A program made the translations under genes and the position numbers. Of a stretch of DNA of 64,000 nt, positions 32,927-51,136 are shown in pieces; the first letter of the stretch is position 1, and each line of letters opens with the position of its first letter. A model generated the notes under the pieces. That model made no database searches and was not told the origin of the DNA. It was given only the letters and a program-made list of their open reading frames with translations. Source of the stretch: Candidatus Zhuqueibacterota bacterium (lineage in GTDB: Bacteria; Zhuqueibacterota; Zhuqueibacteria; Residuimicrobiales; Krinioviventaceae); assembly GCA_016934825.1 (NCBI GenBank), contig JAFGSB010000067.1:7280-71279 (forward strand), read 5' to 3'.

Positions 32927-33379
32927 ATGAAATTACATATAATTTTGATTTTTTCAGTAATTAGCCTGTTTTCTGTGAAAAGTGTTTTATCACAGCAACT
33001 GGTGTCCGTTCATGCGACACAATTGGAACCGAGAAAAGAAGCCGGTTACAAATTTGTAATCGAAACCTCTGTTCCGGTTACGGAAAATACTTCTTTTGAT
33101 ATTATTTTCCCTCAAGTCTTTTTATTGAACAATTTAATTTTATGTAGCTCTACGACAATGGACGGCGGATTGATAGTGAACGTAAAAAATGATACGGTCC
33201 GGGTTTCTCGTTTTGGTCCCGGAACAACTTTGTCCGCCGGGCAGATCGATATCTCCGTGTCTTCGGTGATCAACGCCGCGGATATGCAGCCGGATTATGA
33301 TTTCGAGATCCTGCAATATGATGACGACCGTCAGGTTTCGCAAATCAAATCCTTACATAAAGTTGAACAAATTCAATAA
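32927..33379 (+). CDS. Small secreted protein, paralog of the N-terminal domain of the downstream giant adhesin
   Basis: Signal peptide. ...HATQLEPRKEAGYKFVIETSVPVTENTSFDIIFPQVFLLNN... parallels TITPTDNTYGQSATYTFTFTTQTIIPADGKIAFIFPAQFNLIY at the start of the 3127-aa protein. Confidence 0.6.
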   Translation: MKLHIILIFSVISLFSVKSVLSQQLVSVHATQLEPRKEAGYKFVIETSVPVTENTSFDIIFPQVFLLNNLILCSSTTMDGGLIVNVKNDTVRVSRFGPGTTLSAGQIDISVSSVINAADMQPDYDFEILQYDDDRQVSQIKSLHKVEQIQ

Positions 33380-39400: not shown

Positions 39401-42400
39401 GTCAGAATTTTGTAGTGAGTGTGCTTGTCCGGGCCGGCCAGCTTCTGGGAGTTGATTCCGTTCTGATACAGTTAACGACGAACGGAAATTCCATGTCCGA
39501 ACCGGATACTTTTCAACTTGACAGTATCAACCGGGACTCTGAAATACGGGCGATTTTTAATTTGCAGGCTGATGACAGCTGGCCGGAAATTCAGGGTGAA
39601 CAGGAAGAGATGTTTACGGCAAAAATTCTTTCCGCTTTGTCCAAAAACAGCCAGTTGCCGGCGCGAATTCGTCCGCCGGACAAAACGACCAACGCCCAGG
39701 CAAACCTGCGTATACAGCGCAGCGCCAATTTAAAACTATCGTTGCTCTATAATTCCCCGTTGGACAGTGTATTAACACTCGGACAGCAATTTGATATTAT
39801 CGCACGAATTCATAATCTTGGCACGGCACAGGTCGACATCGGCAAAGTGCAATTGACGCCGCCCACCGGCTATGAAATCAAACTTGCCTCGGAATTGTAT
39901 TCCGCCGAACCCGTGGAACGTCAGTTTACTATTGAAGACGGCGAAGAATATAAAGACGTCCTGTTTACTTTCAGAGCGCCGAATGCAAATTCCGCTAAAA
40001 GCAAGATAAAAGGTAAAATATCTCAAATACCTCTGGATAGAAATACCAATTCACCGGCGGCCATACTGCAAAGCGCGGATTCATTATATGTCCGAACATC
40101 CAGTTCATCATTAAATATACACAGTTTTACAATTTTAAAACCGCAGGGCGCCAAAGATTTTGAGCTGTCGACCGAACAGCCGTTGACATTACAGGCAGTT
40201 ATTACGTCAACATCAAATTTACAGTATCGAAAAGCACGGCTGAAATTCCCGGATAATTTACCCGGCGATGTTATTTATACTTTAAACAACAGCGATGCGG
40301 AAGTAGATATTACCAGCAATCCGGATACGATCAGCTGGCAGCTCAATGCGCCTTCGGTGAAATTTGAAAATGTTCATAAATTTTATGTGGATGCCGAGGC
40401 GGTTGAAGCAGGGAAAACCAAAACCGTAACCGACAGCCTGTCAATTTACCGTGTTGTGAACAGGGCCAATATTGCCATTGAATTCTTTGAGGCGGTTAAT
40501 GAATTTGGGACAATCAAGCAGGAACGGGAAGCATATTTTTCAAAATTTCAACAAAATATCATCCTGCGCGCCCGAATTAAAAACCAGGGCGACGCCAATA
40601 TCACCGGAACGGGCAAATTAAAGCTGGACCTTGGTCAGAGCGGTTTAACGCTTACCAGTGAATACCAGGGACTGGTTGAACAAAATTTCACACAGGAAAC
40701 GGAAGATATAATATGGAAAGTAAATGCCGGGCCGATTAACAACGATGGTTTTAATATTACGGTCGAAATCAGTCAGGCGCCAAATGATGAAAACACAAAC
40801 GAAACCGCAAAAACGGCGGATGATGCAAGTAAACGAACAATGCGGGTTTGGGTAACGGAACTTGGAAAAGTGAGAATTGTGAACAAAAGGGCGTGGATCT
40901 CGTCCCCGATTGGCGCGGTTGACAATATTGTATCGACGGATCAAACGTTCACAGTTAAAACCGAGGTCAATTCGGACAATGTGGATAAAAACAGAATTAC
41001 CGCCCGCCTGGTTGCGCCAGAAGCCTTCCGGGTGATTCAGAGCACTCAAAATGTAACTTTAGGATTTAACAGGGAAGTAACCTGGGAAGTGACCGCCCCC
41101 AGCGACGCCTCCCTGTCCGACAGCCTGAAAGTGCTGGTAACCGGCTACGATGACAATTCGGGCCTTGAATCGAAAGATTCTTCCAATGCCGTTTTTATTC
41201 GAACCGTACCGAAAACTTCATTTAAAATTGATCCCAAAATCACCTATCCGGACAGCTTCCAGGAAAGTGTTTCAACAGGCCAGGAATTTTCCCTGACGGC
41301 GACCATTCTTCACCAGGGGGCGTCATATATAAAAGCGGACAGTTTTATTGTGGAATTGAATTCTCCAAAGGAATTTACACGCATTGACGACAAAAGACAG
41401 ATATTCAAGTTTGCGCAATTTGAAAAAGGACTTCACCCCACATGGAGGTTGAACGCGCCGACTCAAAAACCGGCGGGAGGAGAATTTTCCAACTTTACGA
41501 TCAATTTATTGGAAGTTCCACGTGATGAAAATTCATATATAGCCGGAGAGGTAAAGAACGATTCGGTAACCCATAAAATTTCGGTTGTGGACCGGGCACT
41601 GACAAAAACAGACGCATATTTGCTGGGTCAGGTAAATGCCGATACAGGGAATGTCAGAATCGGCAGTGAATTCAATGTGGTTTTGAGATTAACAAATTTG
41701 GGTTTCGCCCGTTTTATCGATAATTATAGGGTTAAAATTCATTTACCCGCGAACGGGTATACGACCCAGGATGCGGAAAAAACCGGAATCATTACGAATG
41801 GAATGATCGATTCTCTTGTATGGAAAATTAAAGCACCAAACACGATAAATTCCAATCTGGACATCATCTCCTTTACATTATTGGACCCGCCAAATGATCA
41901 GTACGCCAAAACAAATGCGGCTGTATTAAATAATGAGGCCCATGTCAGAGTAAAGCTGGAAACGGGCAAATTAATTGCCGAAACGTATCCCGTGAGAACC
42001 AAATCGGCGGTAATAAAAGGTGGTAAAAACGTTCCGATACTGGGATTGGTTTTCAGAAATAAAGATGTTTCAAGTAAAGTGAATTCTTACCTGACGAAAT
42101 TGTTTCTGACTATCAGGGACAGGGAAGGAGAAATAATCAATCCGTCTACAGCGGTCAACCGTATTGCTGCAGTGCGGCATTCGGATTATGATCATATTTT
42201 TGCACAGACCACAGATTTTAGCGTGACGGATAAACCCGGCCAGGTTATGCTGAATTTCAGAACTTTAAAAATCGATACAATCAGAAGCGCACAAAGGGAC
42301 ACAGTAGATATCATTGTTGATGTTTCGGAATTTAATGAAACGGACTTTAAAATTTCTTTATCAGACTCGCTGCCGATATACGCCGTTGATGATAACGGGC

Positions 42401-42801
42401 AGTTGCTCGATCTGGCAAATGCCAATGGCGAAACGATGAGTTATGTCGATTTCGAATCCCTGCTTGCTGTTGTTGTGGAAGGGGAAATGAAAAAGGCTTT
42501 TTATAACTATCCCAATCCATTCGGAAGAAACGATAAACCCACAACGAATTTTATTTACTATCTGGAACAGGACAGCGCCTTAAAATTGCAGATATTCACA
42601 CTAACAGGCGATCTTGTTAAAAAGTGGGAATTTCAGAGTACCGATCCGGAAGGGGCGGCCGGATTGCACCAGGGAGAGCCTAATTTGATATGGGACGGCA
42701 GAAATGGAAAAGGCGAGGTGATCATGAACGGCGTTTATCTGGCGTACCTGACTCTTGAAGGAGGAAATACGGCTTCGACTAAAATTGTCTTTGTAAAATA
42801 A
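33418..42801 (+). CDS. Giant secreted adhesin-like protein (3127 aa): Ig-like repeats, ~20 tandem CARDB-like domains, type-A T9SS C-terminal sorting domain
   Basis: Signal peptide (AVPALVQGA). N-terminal third holds repeated G/T/A/P-rich Ig-like units (..NGNPASGTIQVTT.., ..GNPLNVPVALSFV..). The middle holds recurrent ~120-aa units such as ITPSRTTVTQGQTTPWTVTMGVHNSG..., ITPSVQTITQGQQNTWYIDINVEN..., IYASQTTVTQGQSIPWNVTVKLTNSG.... The C-terminus FYNYPNPFGRNDKPT...IWDGRNGKGEVIMNGVYLAYL...TKIVFVK matches the Por secretion C-terminal (TIGR04183-like) signature. Confidence 0.85.
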   Translation: MNTLKYIRVAIILLLSAVPALVQGAPLTGVTITPTDNTYGQSATYTFTFTTQTIIPADGKIAFIFPAQFNLIYLNSCGTGTPTILNGGFNNPPPIENDGTGNQTVIVARKGPGNTPVPAGSTISVLLGMVTNPLNPSSADIIAIETRNVSNGVLDTGQSSVSLAGPINSFTLSNPAGVTAGMPFSLSVSNAVDGNGNPASGTIQVTTKTGGGEAPDGTDPSVQDIVVTAGNGSAQQTLYKAESGVVLTGILSSDGSVTDDTSPFTVGSAGINSFTMTGVPTNVQAGVSFTNITVTALDVYENTVSDYTGSVWFTTTSSGYTLPYYAGQPYTFQLADNGSHTFTNFILREAGNQTLTITDGTRSTVSGNIQVNAGPIADFTFAASPSPTAGQQIRLNVTSAVDAAGNPLNVPVALSFVGGGSHSSPNGQTPVLPDNINVVNGSGYTDIVLFNAESNLQIQAVSGGITRTTAPFTVAPGNLFRFGITGYPASTVSGNPFTSDVNVTAYDVYGNQKTNYAGTVGFSSTDNSADLPSSAGLTVGTRTFSGSSFVLRTVGNQRIFVSDLSGSGVSDTTNYINVTNPAISITEITPSRTTVTQGQTTPWTVTMGVHNSGASTITISANELQTYIKFTRGGNDYTSQYTIDGPQGSFVLTGGSTTFLTFSITQTGTTTGVIDIFGRVATTTGGYTNSILSDVYGGIEVQSPEALQIVSITPSQQTVTSGDNTHNWTVAVQLRNNGGSEAGIDFASSSLASQAIVVFQRPTTFQDATTTLKANETKTMIFTVTENSTLLGAHTINAQIQYHVINTGENKSLPPANPGTVTVQAPSNLLVTSVIPTRNQLTIGSSTEWDIRVLVSNTGGSDVNLDLTQANTWVKIFSGATEVTDFDITWPTALKNTGNTTLAAGSQDELVYHVTQNSFSAGTMDILARAQGTEPNRALIIFYETSVGDGHSGTVQMQLPSNVSYVSSSLQPTSVFPRTPAEFQISVSNTGGATVELEPAQTTIQFNDAVNGGNSIFSATLDPAYGTTVAPGTTELHFQSKLVSGDFIPDSYPLQVTLNGTENGSNFQRILNLTSDLVTVGEPGDLAVTAITPSVQTITQGQQNTWYIDINVENNDVSDMRLQNMALTFNYNTQNITDQFTITYPTVLVGSGNNVLPSNTSDVLRVTINSVAANAPTGSILLSAEVQMVDVSDAGRTFTDQLFNAAQITCQSPANVQINNIYASQTTVTQGQSIPWNVTVKLTNSGESKVRLRSGSALTLSRGNQYFTVSNPTTFLGSGNNELGGGTEDSLRFVVTSVSPSVPLGAFTIFATILTEEVNTLNPLSGQSNYISLKMQENAQIRLDRIFADLRSGSLVNTNQEFYIKAQLTNPGGSNGDMVKSVTLNLSSSSPGFTFPNGTTVTIDSIDAGQTKTSEPGILVRASNLSNVRTVINANMTSAVARNTGLPAQVLTPLSNSTEITTQTPGNLVVQNVIAQEDTIVSGTLAPWTIKVAIINSGVGTLLLKKPQDSDVSINREGYVIKADPVWTDSLLIGGELDTLVYTVTNTPSASGVFTITANIQAEDYNDSSIGVFTKSGQTQVYFTKTSAVGITETYMDPATPNVDANGVGHVNITQVFNVRVKIENKADQALDSVRVKLLAPNSLVSSQILITNIGFGEDKEGVFTVQAADVENLVGETLRSEIVYAYGRDGTQSKISPAQDDSVEIKIYYPARLQIVSTENLAPNPEKKVSQGQNFPVEVKVANLGSETAKEIRVSLATSSAQHATVLETPMTIDETIAGGDTGTVVFTLKAGNNTAAGLVSIYSNLFDAKGENNNQQPAFLEPGDNDSTYADLEKGADLLILNLIADVENNEIIANYSQSPWNLNIELFNGGEADLEIVNLNNSNISFTVDGQPDNTYDVRPPSKLKHAGDLILRAGQTDTLAFSIAENGEIAGNAVVKAQIFGRDMNIGPASNLTAIDSTDIYVISEAVVQIVETSINSNVHDNDGKGLVNRGQNFVVSVLVRAGQLLGVDSVLIQLTTNGNSMSEPDTFQLDSINRDSEIRAIFNLQADDSWPEIQGEQEEMFTAKILSALSKNSQLPARIRPPDKTTNAQANLRIQRSANLKLSLLYNSPLDSVLTLGQQFDIIARIHNLGTAQVDIGKVQLTPPTGYEIKLASELYSAEPVERQFTIEDGEEYKDVLFTFRAPNANSAKSKIKGKISQIPLDRNTNSPAAILQSADSLYVRTSSSSLNIHSFTILKPQGAKDFELSTEQPLTLQAVITSTSNLQYRKARLKFPDNLPGDVIYTLNNSDAEVDITSNPDTISWQLNAPSVKFENVHKFYVDAEAVEAGKTKTVTDSLSIYRVVNRANIAIEFFEAVNEFGTIKQEREAYFSKFQQNIILRARIKNQGDANITGTGKLKLDLGQSGLTLTSEYQGLVEQNFTQETEDIIWKVNAGPINNDGFNITVEISQAPNDENTNETAKTADDASKRTMRVWVTELGKVRIVNKRAWISSPIGAVDNIVSTDQTFTVKTEVNSDNVDKNRITARLVAPEAFRVIQSTQNVTLGFNREVTWEVTAPSDASLSDSLKVLVTGYDDNSGLESKDSSNAVFIRTVPKTSFKIDPKITYPDSFQESVSTGQEFSLTATILHQGASYIKADSFIVELNSPKEFTRIDDKRQIFKFAQFEKGLHPTWRLNAPTQKPAGGEFSNFTINLLEVPRDENSYIAGEVKNDSVTHKISVVDRALTKTDAYLLGQVNADTGNVRIGSEFNVVLRLTNLGFARFIDNYRVKIHLPANGYTTQDAEKTGIITNGMIDSLVWKIKAPNTINSNLDIISFTLLDPPNDQYAKTNAAVLNNEAHVRVKLETGKLIAETYPVRTKSAVIKGGKNVPILGLVFRNKDVSSKVNSYLTKLFLTIRDREGEIINPSTAVNRIAAVRHSDYDHIFAQTTDFSVTDKPGQVMLNFRTLKIDTIRSAQRDTVDIIVDVSEFNETDFKISLSDSLPIYAVDDNGQLLDLANANGETMSYVDFESLLAVVVEGEMKKAFYNYPNPFGRNDKPTTNFIYYLEQDSALKLQIFTLTGDLVKKWEFQSTDPEGAAGLHQGEPNLIWDGRNGKGEVIMNGVYLAYLTLEGGNTASTKIVFVK
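35160..41880 (+). repeat. Tandem in-frame array of ~120-aa CARDB-like domain repeats inside the giant adhesin gene (approximate bounds)
   Basis: At least ~18 successive units, each starting with a (V/I)(T/S)I.P(S/T)...T(V/I)TQGQ...W.V.V.N.G pattern, visible in the translation. The units are divergent at the DNA level. Confidence 0.6.
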
Positions 42802-42867
42802 GGTAAAATAAAAAGTTATTTTGATTAAACAAGTTAATTTGTATATTAAAATAGAGAGTATTAAGCG

Positions 42868-44874
42868 GTGAAGAAAATAAAAATAAAATTGGTCACGTTA
42901 TCATTATTTTTATTATTATGTATGACGGGACAGACACTCGCACAGGCCGGTGATGATAACTATGGTGAATGGGGAGGCACTACGGATATTTTTGATTATC
43001 CTGTTGGCGCGAGGGCGATGGCTTTGGGCGGCGCATATGTCTCTGTTGTTAATGATCCGTATGCATTATACTGGAATCCTGCAGCGCTGGAAAATGTACA
43101 AAGAGTGGGGTTCGGCATCTATCACACAAATCTTCCAATGTCTACGGATTATAACTATTTTTCATTTACATATCCGACGCTTTCTTTTGGTACTTTTTCC
43201 GCCGGTATTCTACGAATTTCTACAGGTGATATTCAACTCACCGAGGACGATGCCGCGATAATCGGAGAAGCAAATTCAAGTCGTTCTTTATTTATGTTCG
43301 GGTATGGTTTCAGGCCGTTCCCGTGGTTGTATATGGGAACCAACTTTAAAATCGAACGAACAAGTTTGCCAAATTATGAAGGAAACGGAAATTTTAATGA
43401 ATCCGCTCTCGGAGCAGACATGGGATTGATGTTTAAACCTCAAACCCGGGAAGGATTTTTCCGCGATTTTGCTGTGGGTTTCAATATTCAAAACTTTCTA
43501 CAGCGTCAGCAACGCGTGATTGAGAAACTGGATAAAACACCGCGCAACTTTTTGTTCGGATTGTCAAAAGGATTCGGGAGCGATCAGGGCTCGAGTCATT
43601 TTCTTGTGGCTTACCAAATGGACATAAACGGTAACAATGATCATGTTCCGACTTTTCACCATTTTGGCCTTGAATATGATTTCAATAAAAGTTTGTTTTT
43701 ACGGTTAGGGTATGATTACCGTGGTGAACAGGCGAATGAAGCTTCGGGCGGAAAGGTGACATACGGTATGGGAGTGAGCCTGTTCGGCGTACAGCTCGAT
43801 TACTCTTACTGGACACCCCGATATGATGTGTTAAGCAACAGCCATCGGATTTCACTCGTTTATAATGTAGGCAAAACCCGTAAACAGCGGCTGGACGAGC
43901 TGCAGACCGCGGAACTGGAACGATTTAAACAGGAAGTTGAACGCCAGCGTCAGTATGAGCGGCGGGAGACCATTGTAAAAGGGATGGAGCAGGCCCAGTT
44001 ATTTTATGAAAACGGCGATTTCCCGAGGGCATATAGCGCCACAAACCGGGTGCTGGCTCTGGACGAAACCGGAAATGACCCGGAGTTTAGTAAAGCGCGG
44101 ACATTACTGGCGGATATCAACACGGCAATTGAGCAACAGCGAAATACAGAATTCAATAAAGAATTGGTGCGTACCCGTGAAGAAGCCGAATTAAAACGTA
44201 AACAACAGCAGGTTAAGGAACATTACCAAAAAGCGCTGGCCTTTTTTGAAACGGAAGATTATACCGAAGCAATGCGGGAATGTGACAGGGCATTGGAAAT
44301 TGATGCGAACAGCGACCTGGTCAGAGAACTTCGTAAAACCGTGGAAGAAGACCTGAAAAAGAAGATTACCGTACTGGTAACCCGGGCCAATTCGCTTGAG
44401 CAAAGCGGTCGTCAATATGACGCGATCCAATACTATAATCAGGCCATACAACTGGCTAACGGCAACGAAAAGCTGGAAGGTCTGATAGACAGTAAATTGA
44501 GAAAACTGGAGAGACGCCTGTCACGGGATGAAACGTTACGCCGTGCCAATGAATATGAAATTGCCAAAGAGTGGGATAAAGCGGCGGATATGTACAAAGA
44601 GGCGCTCAAATTTGAACCGAACAATGAGTCTTTACGTCAAAAATATGATGATATGTATGCCCGGGCTAATGCGACCACGGGTAAATTAACCGGCAATGCA
44701 AAAGATTTGTATTCCCAGGGTTTCCGTGCTTTTAATAATGGAGAATATGAGGAAGCCTTAAAATTTTACGAACAGGCTCGGGAGGAGCAGCCCTTTAATA
44801 AAACACTGCTCCGCGCCATAGATGTTGCCAAGGAACGGTTGCGAGCCAAACAATCAGCGGGTTCCGGAAAATAA
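42868..44874 (+). CDS. Outer-membrane beta-barrel of the PorV/PorQ/PorP(SprF) superfamily fused to a C-terminal TPR/coiled-coil domain (GTG start)
   Basis: Signal peptide (CMTGQTLAQA). The N-terminal motif GARAMALGGAYVSVVNDPYALYWNPAAL is typical of the PorV/PorP-like family. Alternating beta-strand pattern runs to ~aa 335. The rest (aa ~340-668) is TPR-like helical repeats (YYNQAIQLANGNEK..., YEEALKFYEQAREEQPFNK). Confidence 0.6.
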   Translation: MKKIKIKLVTLSLFLLLCMTGQTLAQAGDDNYGEWGGTTDIFDYPVGARAMALGGAYVSVVNDPYALYWNPAALENVQRVGFGIYHTNLPMSTDYNYFSFTYPTLSFGTFSAGILRISTGDIQLTEDDAAIIGEANSSRSLFMFGYGFRPFPWLYMGTNFKIERTSLPNYEGNGNFNESALGADMGLMFKPQTREGFFRDFAVGFNIQNFLQRQQRVIEKLDKTPRNFLFGLSKGFGSDQGSSHFLVAYQMDINGNNDHVPTFHHFGLEYDFNKSLFLRLGYDYRGEQANEASGGKVTYGMGVSLFGVQLDYSYWTPRYDVLSNSHRISLVYNVGKTRKQRLDELQTAELERFKQEVERQRQYERRETIVKGMEQAQLFYENGDFPRAYSATNRVLALDETGNDPEFSKARTLLADINTAIEQQRNTEFNKELVRTREEAELKRKQQQVKEHYQKALAFFETEDYTEAMRECDRALEIDANSDLVRELRKTVEEDLKKKITVLVTRANSLEQSGRQYDAIQYYNQAIQLANGNEKLEGLIDSKLRKLERRLSRDETLRRANEYEIAKEWDKAADMYKEALKFEPNNESLRQKYDDMYARANATTGKLTGNAKDLYSQGFRAFNNGEYEEALKFYEQAREEQPFNKTLLRAIDVAKERLRAKQSAGSGK

Positions 44875-44893
44875 AAAAGGACAACTATTTTTA

Positions 44894-47800
44894 TTGAAAA
44901 GCACGATTAAAGAACAACTTAAAGTACCTGCTCATGTTGACAGGCTTGGTGATTTACGGGATTTTGTTACCCGGGTCGGGAAAAAGCACGGCTATTCGGA
45001 AAGGATAATAAATGCTTTTAAACTTTCCATCGATGAAGCCGCAACGAATATAATCAAGCACGCGTATCGAGACTGGGAAGGGGATATCGTTATCCGCTCC
45101 CTGATAAAAAAGAACAGTCTGACATTTATACTGATAGACAAAGGAAAGTATTTTGATCCCCGTCAGGTAAAGGACCCGGATTTAAAAAAATATGTAGATA
45201 TAGGTAAAAAGGGCGGGCTCGGAATTTTTATGATGCGCCGCCTGCTGGATAGAATTGATTATCGAAAAACGGAAAACGGGAATGAGTTGTGGTTAACCAA
45301 AAACCGTGATGAATCCAAACGGCGAAAAATTTCTGTTGCGTCAATTCCATTGGGTTTAAAAGCGCGTTACTGGTTAATTTCAATGGTTGTTTTCTCATTT
45401 ATTTTACTGCTGGTGTATTTGTTTTTTTTTCTAAAGCAAGATAATATCGTATTAGATCAATATATCGAAAACGGGGGCAAAGCCTGTTCTGTTCTTGCCA
45501 ACGATCTTGCAAAAAATTTAACCGATTCGAATGATATAGGCACGGATGTTATCGACGAATTGATCAATGTTGGCAGTCAGGACCTTTTGGTATTAAACAA
45601 GGCGCATACATCCGTGAATACATTATTAAAATCCGAATATAGTGATATTTTACTCAATGCTATTGTTGTAGATAATATACAGAATATTTTGGCAATTGCG
45701 GAAGAAGATTCTTTTTTTAAAGTACTGGAAACTTTTGAAATTCCTGAGGAGCATAAAAAAAAACGCGACAATGTCTACCAGTATCGAATGAAAAGTGGGC
45801 CTGAAATAGTTGACATGGAATGGCCAGTTTTAGATGATGAAAACAGGAAGTTGTGTACGGTACATTTATTCATTGATTTCAAAAATATTAAAAAAGATAT
45901 TACCGGTTCGCGGTCAAATGTTTTTCATCTTGGTCTATTGGTATGGATAATCGGCGCTGCCGGATTGTTTTTATTAATTTATCTTGTCATGAACCCGTTC
46001 CGAAGACTGCAGGAGTGGGTTAAAGCGCTTGGACAACCTGGAGTGGCTGACGAACTGGACATAGATACCTCAACCGAAGTCGGAGAAATTGCCAAAGCTT
46101 TCAGCGATATCACGATGAAACTGCGGGACTCACAGGCCAATCTTGCCGAACAGGAACGGTTACAAAAGGAAATGCAGGTTGCCCAGGAAATCCAGCAGAC
46201 GCTATTACCGTCAAAATTTCCGGAACTGGAAGGATATGATTTATCTGCATTTTATGAGGCGGCAAAGGAAGTAGGCGGCGATTATTTTGATTTTGTTGAA
46301 GTCGATAAAGATACTTTGGGTATCGTTGTCGCCGATGTTTCCGGAAAGGGTGTTCCCGGCTCGCTCGTCATGACCATGATCCGTACCGCTTTGAGAACCG
46401 AAGCCCGAGGAATGAAGGATGCAGCCGAGGTATTAACCCGGGTGAACGATTTTGTCGTTAATGATATGAAAAAGGGTATGTTTGTAACACTTTTTTATGT
46501 TATTATTGATTCCAAAAGGCGGAGAATAAATTTTGCCAGTGCGGGTCATAATCCGATGATCTTGTATCGTGCCAGTGTAAATAAAACATACTATTTGAAT
46601 CCCCGCGGCTTTCCGATCGGTATCTCATTGCCGGACAAAGAGTTGTTTAAAAAATCCCTTCAGTCGGATTCTATCGCTCTTGCGGAAGATGATATACTGC
46701 TTGTGTATACAGACGGTGTTACCGAAGCCATGAATTCAAAAAGGGAATTGTTTGGGGAGGAGAGATTTTTAAAAGTTATCAGGGATTACGGAAAATTAAA
46801 GGCGGAAGATTTTATCGATAACCTGAAAAAGGAAATTATTTCCTTTACGGAGGAAAATCCGCAAAACGATGATATCACTTTGGTCGCAATTAAAGAACAA
46901 ACATCTGTGGAAAAGCTTGAGTTCAAACGCGCCAAAGAAGCCTTTGATCTGATACAACAAGGTAAAAACGTTAAAGAGGCATGTAAAAAAGCCGGTATTT
47001 CCACTTATTCTTATTATAATAAATTCAAGACAAAGTTTGAAGAAGAAGGCGTCGAACAGTATAAAATTGAATCTCCAGAAGATGATTTGGAAGTTAAGCA
47101 TTTAAGTATTGAGGAAAAAACAAAAATATATGATGTTATAAAAAGATTTCCCGAATACGGGGCAAAAAGAATTAGCGAAGAGTTGAATACGGAACACTAT
47201 AATTTTACACGAATATCTCATTCACGCGTGTATGAGGAACTTGTTCAATCAAGATTAAACACAAAAAAATTAAGAGAAGCGTTTGTATTGCGGGGTACAA
47301 AGAAAAAACGCATGAAACCACCGGGTACGCCGCTATTAACCATTGATGGAAAGGTAATTGTTGATAAACCCAAAGTAATTAAAGAGGTTGAAGAGGTTGA
47401 GACCGAAGCCCCGGACACAGCAGTAAGTGTTCCTGAAGAAAAAACGAAAACATTTCCTAAGGTAGCGGAAAAGACCAAAAAGCTGAAAAAGGCTAAAAAA
47501 TCCGAATCGGAAATAATTGAACCGGTTAAAGAGAGTGTTGAAACAGCAAAAAGCGATCAGGAGTTAACGGAAGTCCCGCCGGAGAAAGACGAGGATATAA
47601 TTCAGGTTGAGAATGTATTCGAAAATCTCGGAAGTGAAGAGAAACCTGAACCTGTCCCGGAGACCCCGGAAACCGATACCTTCGAAGAACATCTGGATAC
47701 TGACACATTTGCAGATTTTATTGTTCATGATGATTTTGACAGCATTCAGGATGTAGAGGAAGCGATTGAAAAAATCGAATCGGAAAAAAAGCAGGAAAAG

Positions 47801-49135
47801 GAAGAGGAAAAGGCTGAAATCCCCGCAGAGGGAAAAGATCAGGTCGAGGAAAGTGAACTGCAAGAGGAGAAAACAGTTCATCTGCCTCAGTCAAAAGAGA
47901 TAAAAGCGGAATCCTCAGAAGAACCTGAAGAAAAGGAGGCGCTTGATGAATTTGAGGAGGAAACCGTACAACCTCAATTAATCGAGATCAATGATGAGGA
48001 TACGGAAAAAGCCGAAACACCTGTGGAACCAGGTGAAAATCTGTTTGATTTTGCCGATTTTGATTTTGTTGGAGCCGATGAAAGTGTCAACCTGCAAGAG
48101 GACGAGGAACTGGCTGTAAGCGCCGATATCCCTGTGCTGGCAGATCAAAATCCGGATATTGATCAAATATTTTATGATTTTCAGGTTGGAAAGAATATTG
48201 AAATTAATCAGGATGACGATAAAGAAGAACAGGTTATAGATGATTTGGGATTAAAAAATGAGGAAATGCGATCCCAAAACATAGAACAGGAAGAGATTGA
48301 TCTAGCCGATATAATGAACTCTGAAGATAACATCATCAACATTCCCTCTCATGACGACCAGGACGAAATTGATGAAAAAAACGTGGAAGATATAGATATT
48401 ATATCAGAATCCGAAAAACATGAAAAAGAGATCACAATCTCTGAACCTTTTGAAGAATTTCTTGGACTTGAGCAGGAAAAAGAAATTCCATTAAAAGAAC
48501 CGGAAACACCCAAAACTGAAAAACCTGTTGAGTTGATAAAAGAAGAATATGATATGTCAATACCATATGATGAAATTTGGGAAATCAAGGAAATGGAAAC
48601 ATTTCATGGTTTCTTCGATTCCTCAAGTTTTATTGAAAGGGACAAATTATCTTTTGAAGATCTTATTGATTTGGTTGGAGGTCAAAAAAGGGATGGAAGA
48701 TTTAAAGAAAAAGCCGTTGAAGAAGAAAAAGAACCGGAAAAACCGGATATCAATAAGGAGAAGGACAGACTTTTTAAAGATAAATTAATGACAAAAGCAA
48801 TAAAACTGTATGAAAAAGAAAATTATACGAACGCAATAAAAATCTTTCAGGAATTGTTATTAAAATATCCTGATGATATTAATTTACACGGGTACATTGG
48901 AAATGCTTATTTTAGAAATAAAAATTATGTAATGGCGGAACGGGAATATGAAAAAGTGTTGAAATTAGAACCACAAAACAAACAGGCCTGTGAGAATTTG
49001 GGTGTGGTTTATGCAAATCAGGGTAAATTGAGCGAGGCAATAAGACAATGGGAAAAATTGCTCAAAATGGCCCCTGAACGTCAGGATATTCATAAAAGTA
49101 TCATGAGGGCAAAACGCTATTTAATAAATAATTGA
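44894..49135 (+). CDS. Multidomain partner-switching regulator: RsbW-like HATPase Ser-kinase, 2 TM helices with extracytoplasmic loop, HAMP, PP2C (SpoIIE/RsbU) phosphatase, tandem transposase-like HTH, acidic disordered region, TPR
   Basis: HATPase (..EAATNIIKHAYRDWEGDIVIRS...GGLGIFMMRRLLDRIDY). TM helices (YWLISMVVFSFILLLVYLFFFL; VFHLGLLVWIIGAAGLFLLIYLVM). PP2C core (..VGGDYFDF...LGIVVADVSGKGVPGSLVMTMIRTAL...YTDGVTEA...QNDDITLVAIK). HTH pair (..GKNVKEACKKAGISTYSYYNKFK.. and ..IKRFPEYGAKRISEELNTEHYNFTRISHSRVYEEL..) resembling IS481/IS3 transposase N-termini. ~550 aa D/E/K/P-rich low complexity. C-terminal TPRs. Start set to in-frame TTG at 44894 with an AAGGA RBS; the ATG at 44822 would overlap the upstream gene by 53 nt. 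Confidence 0.8.
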   Translation: MKSTIKEQLKVPAHVDRLGDLRDFVTRVGKKHGYSERIINAFKLSIDEAATNIIKHAYRDWEGDIVIRSLIKKNSLTFILIDKGKYFDPRQVKDPDLKKYVDIGKKGGLGIFMMRRLLDRIDYRKTENGNELWLTKNRDESKRRKISVASIPLGLKARYWLISMVVFSFILLLVYLFFFLKQDNIVLDQYIENGGKACSVLANDLAKNLTDSNDIGTDVIDELINVGSQDLLVLNKAHTSVNTLLKSEYSDILLNAIVVDNIQNILAIAEEDSFFKVLETFEIPEEHKKKRDNVYQYRMKSGPEIVDMEWPVLDDENRKLCTVHLFIDFKNIKKDITGSRSNVFHLGLLVWIIGAAGLFLLIYLVMNPFRRLQEWVKALGQPGVADELDIDTSTEVGEIAKAFSDITMKLRDSQANLAEQERLQKEMQVAQEIQQTLLPSKFPELEGYDLSAFYEAAKEVGGDYFDFVEVDKDTLGIVVADVSGKGVPGSLVMTMIRTALRTEARGMKDAAEVLTRVNDFVVNDMKKGMFVTLFYVIIDSKRRRINFASAGHNPMILYRASVNKTYYLNPRGFPIGISLPDKELFKKSLQSDSIALAEDDILLVYTDGVTEAMNSKRELFGEERFLKVIRDYGKLKAEDFIDNLKKEIISFTEENPQNDDITLVAIKEQTSVEKLEFKRAKEAFDLIQQGKNVKEACKKAGISTYSYYNKFKTKFEEEGVEQYKIESPEDDLEVKHLSIEEKTKIYDVIKRFPEYGAKRISEELNTEHYNFTRISHSRVYEELVQSRLNTKKLREAFVLRGTKKKRMKPPGTPLLTIDGKVIVDKPKVIKEVEEVETEAPDTAVSVPEEKTKTFPKVAEKTKKLKKAKKSESEIIEPVKESVETAKSDQELTEVPPEKDEDIIQVENVFENLGSEEKPEPVPETPETDTFEEHLDTDTFADFIVHDDFDSIQDVEEAIEKIESEKKQEKEEEKAEIPAEGKDQVEESELQEEKTVHLPQSKEIKAESSEEPEEKEALDEFEEETVQPQLIEINDEDTEKAETPVEPGENLFDFADFDFVGADESVNLQEDEELAVSADIPVLADQNPDIDQIFYDFQVGKNIEINQDDDKEEQVIDDLGLKNEEMRSQNIEQEEIDLADIMNSEDNIINIPSHDDQDEIDEKNVEDIDIISESEKHEKEITISEPFEEFLGLEQEKEIPLKEPETPKTEKPVELIKEEYDMSIPYDEIWEIKEMETFHGFFDSSSFIERDKLSFEDLIDLVGGQKRDGRFKEKAVEEEKEPEKPDINKEKDRLFKDKLMTKAIKLYEKENYTNAIKIFQELLLKYPDDINLHGYIGNAYFRNKNYVMAEREYEKVLKLEPQNKQACENLGVVYANQGKLSEAIRQWEKLLKMAPERQDIHKSIMRAKRYLINN

Positions 49136-49155
49136 GCAACAACACGGCAAATAAT

Positions 49156-49184
49156 AAATTATTATTGACATTTTTATGATTAAC
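49156..49184 (+). promoter_or_regulatory. Putative sigma70-type promoter (TTGACA-17-TATATT) upstream of the STAS gene, leaving a ~190-nt leader
   Basis: TTGACA at 49156..49161, 17-nt spacer, TATATT at 49179..49184. Confidence 0.4.
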
Positions 49185-49373
49185 CGCTATATTCCTGCAA
49201 TTAAAAAAATATCACCGGTTATTGTAATTTTTCAGACCGGGCAAAAACGAAAAGATATTATTTTAAGCAAACAATAATCTGTTCTTATTCAGCATTTGTT
49301 ATGTATCTCGGAATGTGTTGTTTCGACGAATTTTATCTTTGATTAAATATGTATTTACGGAGAAATTTAAAAA

Positions 49374-50045
49374 ATGGAAGGTATTCACTTGTCAGTTGAA
49401 AAAGCAGGTTTACAGGAGAGTATTTCCGTAATTAAGGTAGGCGGATATATAGACACAACCACTTCTTCTGAACTGGAACAGGCATTAAATAACTTAATTA
49501 AAGCAGGCTCATATTTAATTATTATTGATTTGGGAAATGTGGACTATGTCAGCAGCGCTGGTTGGGGTATTTTTATAAGTGAAATTAAAGGAATCCGGGA
49601 AAAAGGCGGAGATTTGAAACTTGTTAATATGGTCCCGGAGGTATATGAAGTATTTGAATTGCTGGAATTTCATCATATTTTAAAAGCGTATGATTCTATT
49701 GAACAAGCCATTGATGATTTTGAAAACAGGGGAATGACAAAGTATTCTGAACCGAAAAAGGAAATTAAACCGCCAAAACCCAAAGAGCCTTTGAAAAAAG
49801 AGCCGGTTGTCGAGGAGGAATTCCCAAAAATATCACAGGCCGCTATTTTATCAATTGATGAAAAAATTCAAAAAATTATTGCGGCGAACCCGGACGCCAG
49901 TACCATTCAAATTGTAAAATTATTAAACAGCAAAGAATACGGTTATGTCAAAGTTGGTTGGTTTGGTCTGAGACGTGCTCTGAAAAGATTGAATCTGGAT
50001 TCAAAGAAGAAAAGAAAGTTACATTCAATCACTTATGACGGTTAA
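49374..50045 (+). CDS. STAS-domain anti-sigma-factor antagonist (SpoIIAA/RsbV-like) with K/E/P-rich linker and extra C-terminal domain
   Basis: STAS core (VIKVGGYIDTTTSSELEQALNNL...IIIDLGNVDYVSSAGWGIFISEI...GGDLKLVNMVPEVYEVFELLEF) including a phosphorylatable Ser in the DYVSSAG context. A ~100-aa extension follows (PKKEIKPPKPKEP... then a basic helical domain). Confidence 0.8.
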   Translation: MEGIHLSVEKAGLQESISVIKVGGYIDTTTSSELEQALNNLIKAGSYLIIIDLGNVDYVSSAGWGIFISEIKGIREKGGDLKLVNMVPEVYEVFELLEFHHILKAYDSIEQAIDDFENRGMTKYSEPKKEIKPPKPKEPLKKEPVVEEEFPKISQAAILSIDEKIQKIIAANPDASTIQIVKLLNSKEYGYVKVGWFGLRRALKRLNLDSKKKRKLHSITYDG

Positions 50046-50146
50046 TATTTAACCGTTCTTAATTAAAATAAAAGGGGATCTTTTTTTAATAAAAGTTTAA
50101 AATATTCTGAATAGATTTCCTGCCGTTCACACTCTTATTGAACTAA

Positions 50147-51136
<990 letters not shown>

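What the first reader, a model, noticed from the sequence alone, without database searches (positions are those of the whole stretch)
44894..50045. Kinase and phosphatase of a partner-switching system fused into one ~1410-aa membrane protein with transposase-derived HTHs, followed by a STAS antagonist and no sigma factor
Partner-switching modules normally consist of three separate proteins: an RsbW/SpoIIAB kinase/anti-sigma, an RsbU/SpoIIE PP2C phosphatase, and an RsbV/SpoIIAA STAS antagonist. They control a sigma factor encoded nearby. Here the HATPase kinase domain and the PP2C phosphatase domain sit in the same polypeptide, separated by two TM helices, an extracytoplasmic loop of ~165 aa, and a HAMP domain. 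Downstream of the phosphatase come two consecutive HTH units whose sequence resembles the N-terminal DNA-binding region of IS481/IS3-type transposases. One has the pattern (K)EACKKAGISTYSYY; the second is ..IKRFPEYGAKRISEELN...ISHSRVYEEL. A ~550-aa extremely acidic disordered segment and C-terminal TPRs follow. The cognate STAS protein, after a 238-nt gap with its own promoter-like element, also carries an unusual K/E/P linker plus a basic C-terminal domain. No sigma factor or other obvious output is in the neighbourhood. The output may therefore be direct DNA binding by the membrane-tethered HTHs, or sequestration through the acidic and TPR regions. I do not recognise this architecture as a described system.
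Basis: partly seen in the sequence, partly recalled or inferred. Interest (0 to 1): 0.8.

Follow-up and report, generated by a model that had tools for sequence, protein, structure and literature searches.

The report
Membrane kinase-phosphatase with STAS-HTH partner
A membrane sensor protein of an uncultured bacterial phylum (KSB1) carries both the kinase and the phosphatase that should act on the small neighbouring STAS protein; that protein has its own DNA-binding-type domain, and the pair always sits next to a giant cell-surface protein gene, so it is probably a sigma-factor-free switch controlling the cell surface.

Summary
A STAS gene with its own promoter follows. No sigma factor lies in the 64 kb.

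It is not a one-off. 459 species-representative genomes encode relatives; the 80 loci fetched are mostly labelled KSB1 or Calditrichota, with remote relatives in Krumholzibacteriota and Spirochaetota. Synteny in those 80 loci: giant T9SS-type surface protein (66/66), PorV-like barrel (71/71), kinase-phosphatase, STAS (63/67).

New here: the STAS C-terminal domain is homologous to HTH unit 2 of the enzyme (HHalign 96.8%, E 2.9e-10). Some relatives fuse STAS domains onto the enzyme.

The parts have precedents: SypE (kinase-REC-PP2C), HsbR/CrsR, and CapK/CapS (a STAS-wHTH repressor switched by phosphorylation).

Best model: a Cache-controlled dual enzyme sets Ser61 phosphorylation of a STAS-HTH effector that probably binds DNA. 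No step of this is shown experimentally.

Verdict: new variant of a known kind; moderately high interest.

The parts
44894..49135 (+). Gene for the fused kinase-sensor-phosphatase-HTH-IDR-TPR protein (1413 aa, TTG start)
   Evidence: Intact ORF. The start context is shown. P0241/MBN2411607.1 has the same length and an identical HTH region. 120 full-length homologues have 55-68% identity.
44924..45301 (+). RsbW/SpoIIAB-type serine kinase domain (HATPase_c_2), predicted cytoplasmic
   Evidence: Pfam E 9.5e-24. It aligns to B. subtilis RsbW (6M36, E 2.3e-14) with the N, G1 and G2 boxes kept. These residues are invariant across the family. Net charge is +13.
45365..45436 (+). Transmembrane helix 1
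   Evidence: Hydropathy scan; this is one of only two hydrophobic segments.
45437..45919 (+). Periplasmic sensor loop, poorly conserved; sCache_3_2-like by homology
   Evidence: Identity to homologues is 0.13-0.32. sCache_3_2 is detected in relatives P0293 (E 2.9e-9), P0296, P0307 and P0308 and in the precomputed hits of P0019 and P0031. It is not detected in this protein itself.
45920..45988 (+). Transmembrane helix 2
   Evidence: Hydropathy scan.
45974..46123 (+). HAMP linker domain
   Evidence: Pfam HAMP is weak here (E 0.009). It is above threshold in relatives, for example P0293 at 6e-12. The region is 69-76% identical across the family.
46307..46894 (+). PP2C (SpoIIE-type) serine phosphatase domain
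   Evidence: Pfam E 4.3e-51. It aligns to RssB 3ES2, Rv1364c 3KE6 and the putative serine phosphatase 6K4E. The GGD, DVSGKG, TDG and DD motifs are invariant.
46907..47047 (+). HTH unit 1 (HTH_23/HTH_28-like three-helix bundle)
   Evidence: AF2 pLDDT is about 90. HTH_28 matches 14/19 and HTH_23 12/19 family members, all below threshold. The NCBIfam IS481 N-terminus hit has E 1.2e-9.
47108..47296 (+). HTH unit 2 (HTH_32/HTH_21-like), homologous to the STAS C-terminal domain
   Evidence: AF2 pLDDT is about 90. HTH_32 matches 14/19 and HTH_21 13/19 members. HHalign against the STAS C-domain gives probability 96.8%, E 2.9e-10.
47297..47359 (+). Basic tail with the invariant KPPGTPxLTxDG motif
   Evidence: K807, P809, G810, T811, P812, D817 and G818 are invariant. 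The wider stretch 796-830 has net charge +8.
47384..48763 (+). Acidic, length-variable disordered segment (net -103)
   Evidence: 152 D+E in 460 aa. Identity is mostly below 0.1 (two islands near 0.2) and occupancy 0.3-0.8. It is acidic in all 121 family members, with median length 360 and median net charge -70.
48764..49132 (+). C-terminal TPR domain (predicted cytoplasmic)
   Evidence: TPR_2 E 8.4e-16 plus many other TPR families. It is conserved in nearly all homologues.
49165..49193 (+). Conserved sigma-70-type promoter of the STAS gene (TTGACA-17-TATATT)
   Evidence: It is the best site in 42700-50300, matching 11 of 12. TTGAC[AT]-17-TA[TAC]ATT is present in 58 of 66 loci.
49374..50045 (+). 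Gene for the STAS-linker-HTH effector protein (223 aa)
   Evidence: ORF. P0121 is identical and comes from a candidate division KSB1 bacterium. All 120 listed homologues (201-254 aa, one of them a partial entry) cover at least 91% of the query, C-terminal part included.
49374..49727 (+). STAS domain of the anti-sigma-antagonist type
   Evidence: Pfam E 5e-19 and TIGR00377 at 65.6 bits against a cut-off of 53.45. The Foldseek best match is SpoIIAA in its SpoIIAB complex, TM 0.85-0.88.
49554..49556 (+). Codon of Ser61, the predicted phospho-acceptor
   Evidence: DYVSSAGWG aligns to SYMDSAGLG (TM1442) and SYMDSTGLG (RsbV), so S61 falls on the serine that follows the Asp there; that this is the phospho-acceptor (RsbV Ser56) rests on my own knowledge. 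S60 and S61 are invariant in 40 homologues.
49728..49838 (+). Non-conserved K/E/P-rich disordered linker
   Evidence: AF2 pLDDT is below 50 at residues 125-153. Identity is 0.13.
49839..50042 (+). Basic four-helix C-terminal domain (HTH_32-like), homologous to HTH unit 2 of the enzyme
   Evidence: pLDDT is 84-89. pI is 10.06 and net charge +8. BLASTP gives E 3e-5 and HHalign E 2.9e-10. It is present in 63/63 downstream STAS genes.
42868..44874 (+). PorV/PorQ-family outer-membrane barrel fused to TPRs; always directly upstream
   Evidence: NF033709 at 141.5 bits against a cut-off of 90. It is adjacent in 71/71 evaluable loci and also in Krumholzibacteriota locus L085.
33418..42801 (+). Giant secreted surface protein (3127 aa) with a T9SS-type C-terminal domain; conserved cluster partner
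   Evidence: The C-terminus matches the C-terminal regions of the PorU, PorZ and M6i models (E 3e-6 to 4e-7), which I take to be their T9SS C-terminal domains. TIGR04183 scores 21.7 bits against a cut-off of 23. It is upstream in 66/66 evaluable loci.
32927..33379 (+). Small secreted protein that resembles the giant protein's N-terminal domain by eye
   Evidence: It has a signal-peptide-like N-terminus, and by eye it shares a V.V.P...G...F.F.T..IP.DG motif with the N-termini of the giant proteins. No alignment was run. Homologues are detected in only four loci.
31438..32574 (+). Cytoplasmic TPR protein (378 aa) that precedes the giant gene wherever the upstream region is visible
   Evidence: TPR hits. 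Homologues lie upstream of the giant gene in L054, L060, L063, L066, L070, L071, L074 and L077.

Best explanation
This is a sigma-factor-independent, partner-switching-type phospho-switch built into a membrane sensor.

Topology and signal. The 1413-aa protein spans the inner membrane twice. Its variable periplasmic loop is a single-Cache domain in relatives and reads an external or envelope signal. The signal passes through HAMP.

Enzymatic step. On the cytoplasmic side the protein carries both an RsbW-type serine kinase (N-terminal) and a PP2C phosphatase (after HAMP). The signal shifts the balance between the two. The substrate is Ser61 of the neighbouring STAS protein, which is transcribed from its own strong promoter.

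Output. The STAS protein is the effector. A disordered linker joins its STAS domain to a basic HTH_32-type domain. I propose that the phosphorylation state of the STAS domain decides whether this domain is free to bind DNA, as shown for CapS. Alternatively it is held at the membrane on the enzyme. Possible holding sites are the kinase domain, the homologous HTH pair, and the strongly acidic tail.

Target. The most likely target is the invariably linked cluster: TPR protein, giant T9SS-type surface protein and PorV-like barrel.

What is shown and what is inferred.
- Shown by computation: domain identities, intact catalytic motifs, topology, homology of the two HTH modules, conservation and synteny.
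- Inferred: actual phosphorylation, the direction of the switch, DNA binding, and the regulatory target.
For: Enzyme and substrate.
- Kinase, PP2C and STAS are detected at E 1e-19 to 1e-51.
- They align to RsbW, to RssB/Rv1364c/6K4E, and to RsbV/SpoIIAA/TM1442 with catalytic motifs and the acceptor serine kept.
- These residues are invariant across 35-40 homologues.
- STAS lies downstream in 63/67 species-level loci.
- In remote relatives P0308 and P0315, STAS domains (three matched stretches in P0308) are fused onto the same polypeptide after the HTHs, a Rosetta-stone link.

Sensor.
- There are two TM segments and the N-terminus is basic.
- sCache_3_2 and HAMP are detected in relatives.

HTH modules.
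- The IS481 N-terminus profile hits at E 1.2e-9.
- AF2 gives two three-helix bundles at pLDDT about 90.
- HTH_32, HTH_28 and HTH_21 hit 13-14 of 19 family members.

STAS C-domain.
- It is confidently folded.
- It is basic, with pI 10.
- It is conserved.
- It is homologous to HTH2.
- It is present in 63/63 downstream STAS genes.

Precedents.
- CapS is a STAS-wHTH repressor released from DNA when CapK phosphorylates the STAS serine, and CapK itself carries an HTH (PMC13373217).
- SypE is an N-terminal kinase plus C-terminal PP2C dual enzyme acting on SypA with a non-sigma output (PMC10120452, PMC8256260).

Link to the surface cluster.
- PorV-like is adjacent in 71/71 loci and the giant protein in 66/66.
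- The same arrangement occurs in Krumholzibacteriota.
- No sigma factor appears in the window or within 10 kb in five other annotated loci.
Against: - There are no experimental data for any step.
- No conserved palindromic operator was found. Conservation upstream of STAS is confined to the promoter hexamers and spacer. The giant-operon promoter could not be compared across close relatives.
- The STAS C-domain has no direct family hit. It is called an HTH only through its homology to HTH2.
- The recognition helix of HTH2 on the enzyme is acidic, so at least that copy may not bind DNA. This raises the chance that the module is a protein-docking domain.
- Synteny shows linkage, not regulation.
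- A sigma factor encoded elsewhere in the genome cannot be excluded.
Confidence: 0.55

Rival explanations
1. Post-translational output. The STAS protein, in one phospho-state, binds and controls a protein of the surface or secretion machinery rather than DNA. Candidates are the TPR proteins, the PorV-like barrel's partners, and export of the giant cargo. In this reading the HTH-like modules on enzyme and substrate are homotypic docking modules that recruit the substrate to the enzyme. The acidic tail and TPRs act as scaffolds.
For: - Known sigma-free STAS systems act on proteins. SypA has an unknown target in syp-polysaccharide biofilm formation (PMC8256260). HsbA binds FlgM or HsbD (PMC6482189). 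A HenR/STAS module regulates a glycosyltransferase for an envelope layer (PMC13555669, listed).
- The same module sits on both partners, which suits a docking role.
- In some relatives STAS is fused covalently to the enzyme, so proximity seems to matter.
- The recognition helix of HTH2 on the enzyme is acidic (sequence).
- There are three TPR-bearing proteins in the cluster.
- No operator was found.
Against: - The fold and profile hits point to DNA-binding HTH families.
- The STAS C-domain is basic with conserved Arg and Lys on its third helix.
- CapS shows that STAS-HTH proteins can be true DNA binders.
- The PorV-like barrel and the giant protein are extracytoplasmic, so a direct cytoplasmic contact would need another partner.
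Confidence: 0.25
2. Classical anti-sigma switch with a distant sigma factor. The N-terminal kinase domain also sequesters a sigma factor encoded elsewhere in the genome, as CrsR and HsbR do with RpoS. Unphosphorylated STAS displaces it.
For: - The kinase domain's best family and structure matches are true anti-sigma factors: RsbW (NF003144, E 6.5e-19; 6M36).
- CrsR and HsbR are fused PP2C-kinase proteins that bind RpoS, which is not encoded next to them (PMC6482189).
- HAMP receptors are usually dimers (own knowledge). That would place two kinase domains side by side, as in SpoIIAB dimers.
Against: - No sigma factor lies in 64 kb here or within 10 kb in five other annotated loci.
- The scores are far below the RsbW equivalog cut-offs: 67.9 bits against 145.
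- This model gives no role to the conserved HTH on STAS, the HTH pair, the acidic tail, or the strict synteny with the surface cluster.
Confidence: 0.12
3. The membrane-tethered HTH pair of the large protein is itself the output. It binds DNA at the membrane, ToxR/CadC-style, and STAS only modulates it.
For: - The HTH pair is highly conserved, with many invariant residues.
- It resembles bipartite transposase or paired-type DNA-binding domains.
- A basic tail follows it.
- CapK also carries an HTH (PMC13373217).
- The minimal relatives P0293 and P0296 keep the HTH although they lack the IDR and TPR.
Against: - The HTH2 recognition helix is acidic.
- The pair is followed by a -103 tail that would repel DNA.
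- This model does not explain why STAS carries its own copy of the module in 63/63 loci.
- No operator was found.
Confidence: 0.08

Closest known systems
SypE / SypA of Vibrio fischeri
   Same: One polypeptide carries an N-terminal RsbW-like serine kinase and a C-terminal PP2C phosphatase, with a signal-input module between them. It sets the phosphorylation of a STAS protein on the conserved serine. The output is not a sigma factor and concerns the cell surface, namely syp polysaccharide and biofilm (PMC10120452, PMC8256260).
   Different: - In SypE the input module is a cytoplasmic receiver domain. Here it is TM-periplasmic loop (Cache-like)-TM-HAMP, so the protein is a membrane sensor.
- SypE has no HTH, acidic tail or TPR.
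- SypA is a 105-aa STAS-only protein. Here STAS carries an extra HTH-type domain.
- Sequence similarity is limited to the shared domains.
CapK / CapS (Controller of associated pathways; EMBO J 2026)
   Same: A SpoIIAB/RsbW-like kinase that itself carries an HTH phosphorylates the conserved STAS serine of a two-domain protein: N-terminal STAS and C-terminal helix-turn-helix. That protein is the DNA-binding output, and no sigma factor is involved (PMC13373217).
   Different: - CapS has a MarR/ArsR-type winged HTH directly after STAS. Here an IS481/HTH_32-type bundle follows a disordered linker of about 35 aa.
- CapK is cytoplasmic (HTH-STAS-GHKL), is activated by ssDNA, and has no phosphatase.
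- CapK/CapS flank anti-phage operons. This system flanks a surface-protein cluster.
- DNA binding is not shown here.
HsbR/HsbA (Pseudomonas) and CrsR/CrsA (Shewanella); Rv1364c (M. tuberculosis)
   Same: PP2C phosphatase and RsbW-type kinase are fused in one protein that controls a STAS partner (PMC6482189). The PP2C domain here aligns to the Rv1364c chain 3KE6.
   Different: - The domain order is the reverse: REC or PAS, then PP2C, then kinase.
- They are soluble.
- Their kinase domain is a proven or presumed anti-sigma factor (RpoS, SigF).
- They have no HTH, IDR or TPR.
SiaA/SiaB/SiaC (Pseudomonas aeruginosa)
   Same: SiaA is a membrane-anchored HAMP-PP2C phosphatase. It is the best NCBIfam full-length-type hit for the HAMP-PP2C part (NF038263, E 5.7e-19). 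It acts with a kinase on a small partner protein to control biofilm without a sigma factor.
   Different: - The kinase SiaB is a separate protein of a different family.
- SiaC is not a canonical STAS-HTH.
- The output is a diguanylate cyclase.
- The score is far below the SiaA equivalog cut-off: 68 bits against 700.
IS481-family transposase N-terminal DNA-binding region (HTH_28/23 + HTH_32)
   Same: It has the same bipartite pair of three-helix bundles. The NF033577 profile matches positions 9-113 at E 1.2e-9.
   Different: - There is no DDE (rve) catalytic domain, and I looked for no terminal repeats and noticed none.
- The score is 38 bits against a cut-off of 224.
- The module is embedded in a signalling protein and duplicated onto the STAS partner.
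- It is a domesticated fragment, not a transposase.

Membership tests
Partner-switching module (RsbW/RsbU/RsbV, SpoIIAB/SpoIIE/SpoIIAA type) | GHKL serine kinase of the HATPase_c_2 type with N, G1 and G2 boxes | tested here: met
   PF13581 E 9.5e-24. The alignment to RsbW 6M36 keeps E..N..H, D.G and GGLG. These residues are invariant in the family.
Partner-switching module (RsbW/RsbU/RsbV, SpoIIAB/SpoIIE/SpoIIAA type) | PP2C/SpoIIE phosphatase with metal-binding aspartates | tested here: met
   PF07228 E 4.3e-51. The GGD, DVSGKG, TDG and DD motifs are invariant.
Partner-switching module (RsbW/RsbU/RsbV, SpoIIAB/SpoIIE/SpoIIAA type) | STAS antagonist with the conserved phosphorylatable serine, encoded alongside | tested here: met
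   TIGR00377 at 65.6 bits, above the 53.45 cut-off. Ser61 aligns to the serine after the Asp in RsbV and TM1442, which I take from memory to be their phospho-serine. STAS is adjacent in 63/67 loci.
Partner-switching module (RsbW/RsbU/RsbV, SpoIIAB/SpoIIE/SpoIIAA type) | A sigma factor (or other partner) that the kinase sequesters and the antagonist releases | tested here: not met
   No sigma factor was found among the window's ORFs of 120 aa or more or within 10 kb in loci L001-L004, L085 and L086. A distant sigma factor cannot be tested with these tools.
Partner-switching module (RsbW/RsbU/RsbV, SpoIIAB/SpoIIE/SpoIIAA type) | Demonstrated reversible phosphorylation of STAS by the kinase and phosphatase | not testable with these tools
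   This needs biochemistry.
SypE-type dual kinase/phosphatase regulator | N-terminal serine kinase and C-terminal PP2C in one polypeptide acting on a STAS protein | tested here: met
   Domain order; the definition is taken from PMC10120452.
SypE-type dual kinase/phosphatase regulator | Central receiver (REC) domain as the input | tested here: not met
   No Response_reg hit. The central region is TM-loop-TM-HAMP.
CapK/CapS-type kinase plus STAS-HTH transcription factor | [quoted passage not shown] | tested here: inconclusive
   The two-domain architecture is confirmed. The C-domain is homologous to an HTH_32-type unit. It is not a MarR/ArsR wHTH and has no direct family hit.
CapK/CapS-type kinase plus STAS-HTH transcription factor | Location next to anti-phage immune operons; kinase of HTH-STAS-GHKL architecture | tested here: not met
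   The neighbours are a surface-protein cluster and housekeeping genes. The kinase protein has a different architecture.
CapK/CapS-type kinase plus STAS-HTH transcription factor | Sequence-specific DNA binding lost on STAS phosphorylation | not testable with these tools
   No operator was found by repeat or footprint analysis. This needs EMSA or ChIP.
IS481-family transposase | N-terminal bipartite HTH DNA-binding region | tested here: met
   NF033577 profile positions 9-113 match at E 1.2e-9. AF2 gives two three-helix bundles.
IS481-family transposase | DDE (rve) catalytic core; full-length score above the family cut-off | tested here: not met
   There is no rve hit. The score is 38.1 bits against a cut-off of 224. 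tblastn against plasmid records finds nothing.
Type IX secretion cargo plus PorV-type shuttle (for the linked upstream genes) | PorV/PorQ-family outer-membrane beta-barrel | tested here: met
   NF033709 at 141.5 bits against a cut-off of 90 for ORF 42868..44874.
Type IX secretion cargo plus PorV-type shuttle (for the linked upstream genes) | C-terminal T9SS sorting domain on the cargo | tested here: inconclusive
   TIGR04183 scores 21.7 bits against a cut-off of 23. The PorU, PorZ and M6i C-terminal regions match at E 3e-6, 3e-5 and 4e-7.
Cache/HAMP transmembrane sensor | Periplasmic Cache domain between two TM helices, followed by HAMP | tested here: inconclusive
   The two TM segments are confirmed. 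HAMP is weak here (16.7 bits against 25) but clear in relatives. sCache_3_2 is detected only in relatives.

The most novel reading that the evidence does not exclude
A conserved one-locus circuit of the KSB1/Calditrichota lineage, with relatives in Krumholzibacteriota. A periplasmic Cache sensor controls, through reversible phosphorylation of a STAS domain, a transposase-derived HTH module that exists in two copies: one on the enzyme and one on the substrate.

In one state the basic STAS-HTH effector is parked at the membrane. It is held by its homologous partner module and by a DNA-mimicking acidic tail of -70 to -100 charge. In the other state it is released to the chromosome and switches on or off a giant T9SS-exported surface protein and its dedicated PorV-like barrel.

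This would be a new way to couple envelope sensing to transcription without a two-component response regulator or a sigma factor.
Probability: 0.15. Interest if true: 0.8.

Novelty: new variant of a known kind. Interest (0 to 1): 0.58.

Why it matters
Partner-switching modules are usually taught as sigma-factor controllers. Recent work (SypE/SypA, HsbR/HsbA, SiaABC, HenR, CapK/CapS) shows they are general phospho-switches with varied outputs.

This locus adds a complete, self-contained variant. The sensor, both enzymes and a probable DNA-binding effector are encoded in two genes. The variant is conserved across a whole uncultured phylum, and it is always next to the same candidate target.

If the STAS-HTH protein binds DNA, it would be a second, independent origin of STAS-regulated transcription factors after CapS. 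Here the HTH would come from a transposase, and a true environmental sensor would sit upstream.

The strict linkage to a giant T9SS-type surface protein gives a concrete, testable hypothesis about how the FCB-superphylum bacteria that carry this locus regulate their outermost layer.

The shared HTH module on enzyme and substrate, together with the very acidic tail, is an unexplained design feature worth a structural study.

Tried and rejected
- **Frameshift or misassembly.** Rejected. There are 120 full-length homologues, and an independent gene call gives a 1413-aa protein with an identical HTH region. One fragmented locus, L002, is a frameshift-rich assembly and not a natural split.
- **Sigma factor nearby.** Searched the ORFs of 120 aa or more with Pfam; none found.
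- **Operator search.** I looked for inverted and direct repeats in the three upstream gaps. I built a promoter-anchored alignment of 57 loci. I aligned the gap among the closest relatives. Only the promoter itself is conserved and no palindrome emerged.
- **Known RNA in the 180-nt leader.** No Rfam hit at E up to 1. The leader length varies from 21 to 300 nt across loci.
- **Sequence search of the HTH profile against PDB.** Only spurious hits to acetyltransferases and antibodies.
- **Foldseek of the two-bundle model.** No significant hit, best E 0.25. The flexible linker is the likely cause.
- **tblastn of the HTH region against annotated plasmids**, to recover real transposases. No match.
- **KPPGTPxLTxDG as a remnant of the IS481 'PGxxxHxDxK' entry into the DDE core.** This rests only on my memory of IS481 sequences and could not be tested. 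I do not claim it.
- **Direct Pfam hit for the STAS C-domain.** None.
- **TPR378 N-terminus hit to RomY** (19.8 bits against a cut-off of 50). Treated as noise.

Full report
**1.

The + strand ORF ending at 49135 is uninterrupted. The first ATG, at 44822, overlaps the upstream gene by 53 nt. The TTG at 44894 follows an AAGGA ribosome-binding site and lies 20 nt after the upstream stop. It gives a 1413-aa product. An independent gene call made a protein of that length with an identical HTH region: P0241 = MBN2411607.1, 'SpoIIE family protein phosphatase [candidate division KSB1 bacterium]'.

Pfam and NCBIfam find the following domains, numbered from the 44822 ATG:

| Domain | Residues | E-value |
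|---|---|---|
| HATPase_c_2 | 35-160 | 9.5e-24 |
| HAMP (weak) | 385-434 | 0.009 |
| SpoIIE/PP2C | 496-691 | 4.3e-51 |
| IS481 transposase N-terminus | 710-818 | 1.2e-9 |
| TPRs | 1320-1427 | 8.4e-16 (TPR_2) |

From here on, residues are numbered from the TTG start.

- Two hydrophobic segments, and only two (about 158-181 and 343-368), flank a 162-aa acidic loop.
- The N-terminal kinase has net charge +13. By the positive-inside rule this puts the kinase, HAMP, PP2C, HTHs, tail and TPRs in the cytoplasm.
- The acidic segment is about 460 aa (831-1290) with net charge -103.

The downstream ORF 49374..50045 has three parts:
- a STAS domain (E 5e-19);
- a non-conserved K/E/P linker;
- a basic C-terminal domain (pI 10).

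The 238-nt gap contains TTGACA-17-TATATT at 49165-49193, the best promoter-like site in 7.6 kb.

**2. Catalytic competence**

- **Kinase.** It aligns to B. subtilis RsbW (6M36, E 2.3e-14) with the N-box E..N..H, G1 D.G and G2 GGLG kept.
- **PP2C.** It aligns to RssB, Rv1364c and the putative serine phosphatase 6K4E, which I take to be SiaA-type, with the GGD and DVSGKG motifs. TDG and DD are also invariant in the family.
- **STAS.** DYVSSAGWG aligns to SYMDSAGLG (TM1442) and SYMDSTGLG (RsbV). This places Ser61 on the position I take to be the phospho-acceptor. S60 and S61 are invariant in 40 homologues.
- **STAS model.** It superposes best on SpoIIAA in its SpoIIAB complex, TM 0.85-0.88.

**3. 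It is a conserved family, not a one-off**

The N-terminal 806 aa find 1926 proteins at E of 1e-10 or better. The best 120 are 937-1411 aa long with 55-68% identity. All 120 carry HATPase_c_2 and SpoIIE and 118 also carry TPRs. They are named only 'SpoIIE family protein phosphatase' or 'RsbU/anti-sigma regulatory factor'.

Conservation across these homologues:

| Region | Identity to homologues |
|---|---|
| Kinase | 0.6-0.8 |
| HAMP | 0.7 |
| PP2C | 0.5-0.9 |
| HTH region | 0.54-0.69, full occupancy |
| TPR | 0.3-0.5 |
| Periplasmic loop | 0.13-0.3 |
| Acidic tail | mostly below 0.1, up to 0.2 in two islands |

The tail is acidic in all 121 members, with median length 360 aa and median net charge -70.

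A scan of one genome per species found 459 genomes with a relative. The 80 best are labelled KSB1, Calditrichota, Zhuqueibacter and similar.

**4. Context**

In those 80 loci:
- a PorV-like gene is directly upstream in 71/71 evaluable cases;
- a giant protein lies upstream of that in 66/66;
- a STAS gene lies downstream in 63/67;
- every one of the 63 STAS genes carries the C-terminal domain.

The four exceptions are L008, L043, L075 and L084. L043 and L075 are second copies in genomes that also hold a complete locus.

The genes further downstream differ between lineages.

Identities of the upstream genes:
- The upstream ORF is a PorV/PorQ-family barrel plus TPRs: NF033709 at 141.5 bits against a cut-off of 90.
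- The giant protein's C-terminus resembles T9SS sorting domains. TIGR04183 scores 21.7 against 23, and the C-terminal regions of the PorU and PorZ models match at E 3e-6 and 3e-5.
- Where the region upstream of the giant gene is visible, a homologue of the 378-aa TPR protein (31438..32574) precedes it.

No sigma factor was found among the window's ORFs of 120 aa or more.

In a Krumholzibacteriota genome the same order recurs: a giant Big_1/Invasin protein, then a PorP/SprF-like barrel with TPRs, then the kinase-phosphatase.

**5. The HTH modules**

- AF2 folds residues 661-839 into two separate three-helix bundles. pLDDT is about 90, and a flexible linker joins them.
- Foldseek gives no significant hit. 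Its top hits are bipartite transposase or paired-type domains: TnsB, Pax5/6 and SETMAR.
- Among 19 family members, HTH_32 hits 14, HTH_28 hits 14, HTH_21 hits 13 and HTH_23 hits 12 at E up to 1. For the window's own sequence each falls below its Pfam cut-off.
- Only 159 cluster representatives of 1.84 billion match the region at E of 0.001 or better.

The weaker matches fall into two groups:
- Remote relatives that share the core HATPase_c_2, sCache_3_2, HAMP, SpoIIE and HTH. One of them is from Spirochaetota.
- Small tandem HTH_28/HTH_32 proteins without a DDE domain.

There is no rve domain, so this is a domesticated transposase fragment.

**6. New finding: the module is shared with the substrate**

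The STAS C-terminal domain aligns to HTH unit 2 of the enzyme. BLASTP gives 29% identity over 59 aa, E 3e-5. HHalign of the two family profiles gives probability 96.8% and E 2.9e-10 over 62 columns, and no match to unit 1.

AF2 gives the C-domain four helices at pLDDT 84-89, with the same helix pattern as HTH2.

In diverged loci the STAS C-domain reads NPAWGASKISKALNTEKYGF. This is even closer to PEYGAKRISEELNTERYGF of the enzyme.

In P0308 and P0315, STAS domains (three matched stretches in P0308) are fused directly after the HTHs of the enzyme. STAS and this HTH type are therefore covalently linked in both lineages, in different ways.

**7. Promoter**

TTGAC[AT]-17-TA[TAC]ATT precedes STAS in 58 of 66 loci. 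T-rich flanks and some spacer positions are also conserved. No palindrome is apparent. STAS is thus expressed from its own strong promoter.

**8. Mechanism**

The best-supported model is a sensor-controlled dual kinase/phosphatase, SypE-like in logic. It sets the phospho-state of a STAS-HTH effector, CapS-like in logic.

- CapS is a STAS-wHTH repressor. CapK phosphorylates its STAS serine, and this dissociates the dimer and releases DNA. CapK itself carries an HTH (PMC13373217).

Here the basic C-domain of STAS is the likelier DNA binder, because the HTH2 recognition helix on the enzyme is acidic.

The rivals are a protein-level output with the HTH modules as docking domains, a distant sigma factor, and DNA binding by the tethered HTH pair. 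None of them is excluded.

**9. Novelty**

Each element has a precedent. The combination has none that I could find in the literature searched:
- a membrane Cache/HAMP sensor placed between kinase and phosphatase;
- a transposase-derived HTH shared by enzyme and substrate;
- a large acidic tail and TPRs;
- strict linkage to a giant T9SS-type surface protein.

I rate it a new variant of a known kind, conserved across a phylum and experimentally untouched.

Noticed in passing
window 1-64000: Every credible gene in the 64-kb window is on the + strand: about 45 genes and three tRNAs. Cumulative GC skew rises almost monotonically. This is an unusually long co-directional stretch.
   Followed up: no
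window 34000-40000: The N-terminal half of the giant gene has 48-53% G+C against about 38-40% for the rest of the window. This may reflect its Thr/Gly/Ala/Ser-rich repeat composition or a different origin.
   Followed up: no
window 31143-31436: A 97-aa ORF has an N-terminal CxxC...CxxC zinc-ribbon ([16 protein letters not shown]..., FmdB-like from memory) and a Lys/Thr-rich tail. It ends 1 nt before the TPR378 gene. It is absent at that position in the other loci where the upstream region is visible.
   Followed up: partly
window 32927-33379: A 150-aa secreted protein that by eye resembles the giant protein's N-terminal domain sits immediately before the giant gene. It is detected in only a few other loci.
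   Followed up: partly
window 47297-47359 (residues 802-822): The motif KPPGTPxLTxDG, just after HTH2, is invariant across the family. From memory it resembles the PGxxxHxDxK entry to the DDE core of IS481 transposases. If so, the captured fragment extends into the first catalytic strand. I could not test this.
   Followed up: partly
window 48446-48463 and about 48650-48665 (residues about 1185-1190 and 1254-1257): Two small conserved hydrophobic islands (F.e.l and f.dL) lie inside the otherwise unconserved acidic tail. They could be short docking motifs, for example for the TPRs of this protein or of its neighbours.
   Followed up: partly
L043, L075 (and L008, L084): Some loci have a giant protein, a PorV-like gene and a kinase-phosphatase but no STAS gene downstream. 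L043 and L075 are second copies in genomes that also hold a complete locus, which suggests one STAS protein may serve two sensors.
   Followed up: partly
L085 10001-17102 (Krumholzibacteriota, GCA_034520215.1): The variant locus encodes a kinase-phosphatase with HTHs and fused STAS domains. A ParA/MinD-like ATPase, a TPR protein and two stand-alone STAS genes without the HTH domain follow it.
   Followed up: no
L086 5483-8459: The minimal 797-aa relative (kinase, sCache, PP2C, HTH; no tail, no TPR) sits directly after a Wza-like polysaccharide export gene (Poly_export/SLBB). This is another cell-surface context.
   Followed up: no
L002 (GCA_034521575.1): In this 2.6-Mb contig all genes of the cluster are broken into pieces: the kinase-phosphatase into 86+937+68+220 aa and STAS into 75+128 aa. 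This is typical of an assembly rich in indel errors rather than of biology.
   Followed up: no
window 49194-49373: The leader between the STAS promoter and the start codon is about 180 nt here but 40-50 nt in most loci. The extra sequence is A/T-rich, is not conserved even in the closest relatives, and matches no Rfam family.
   Followed up: yes
window 11945-17863: DUF4159, a 1118-aa DUF4175 protein and a 610-aa TPR protein form a cluster that resembles Bacteroides aerotolerance (Bat)-type operons from memory. It is unrelated to the finding.
   Followed up: no
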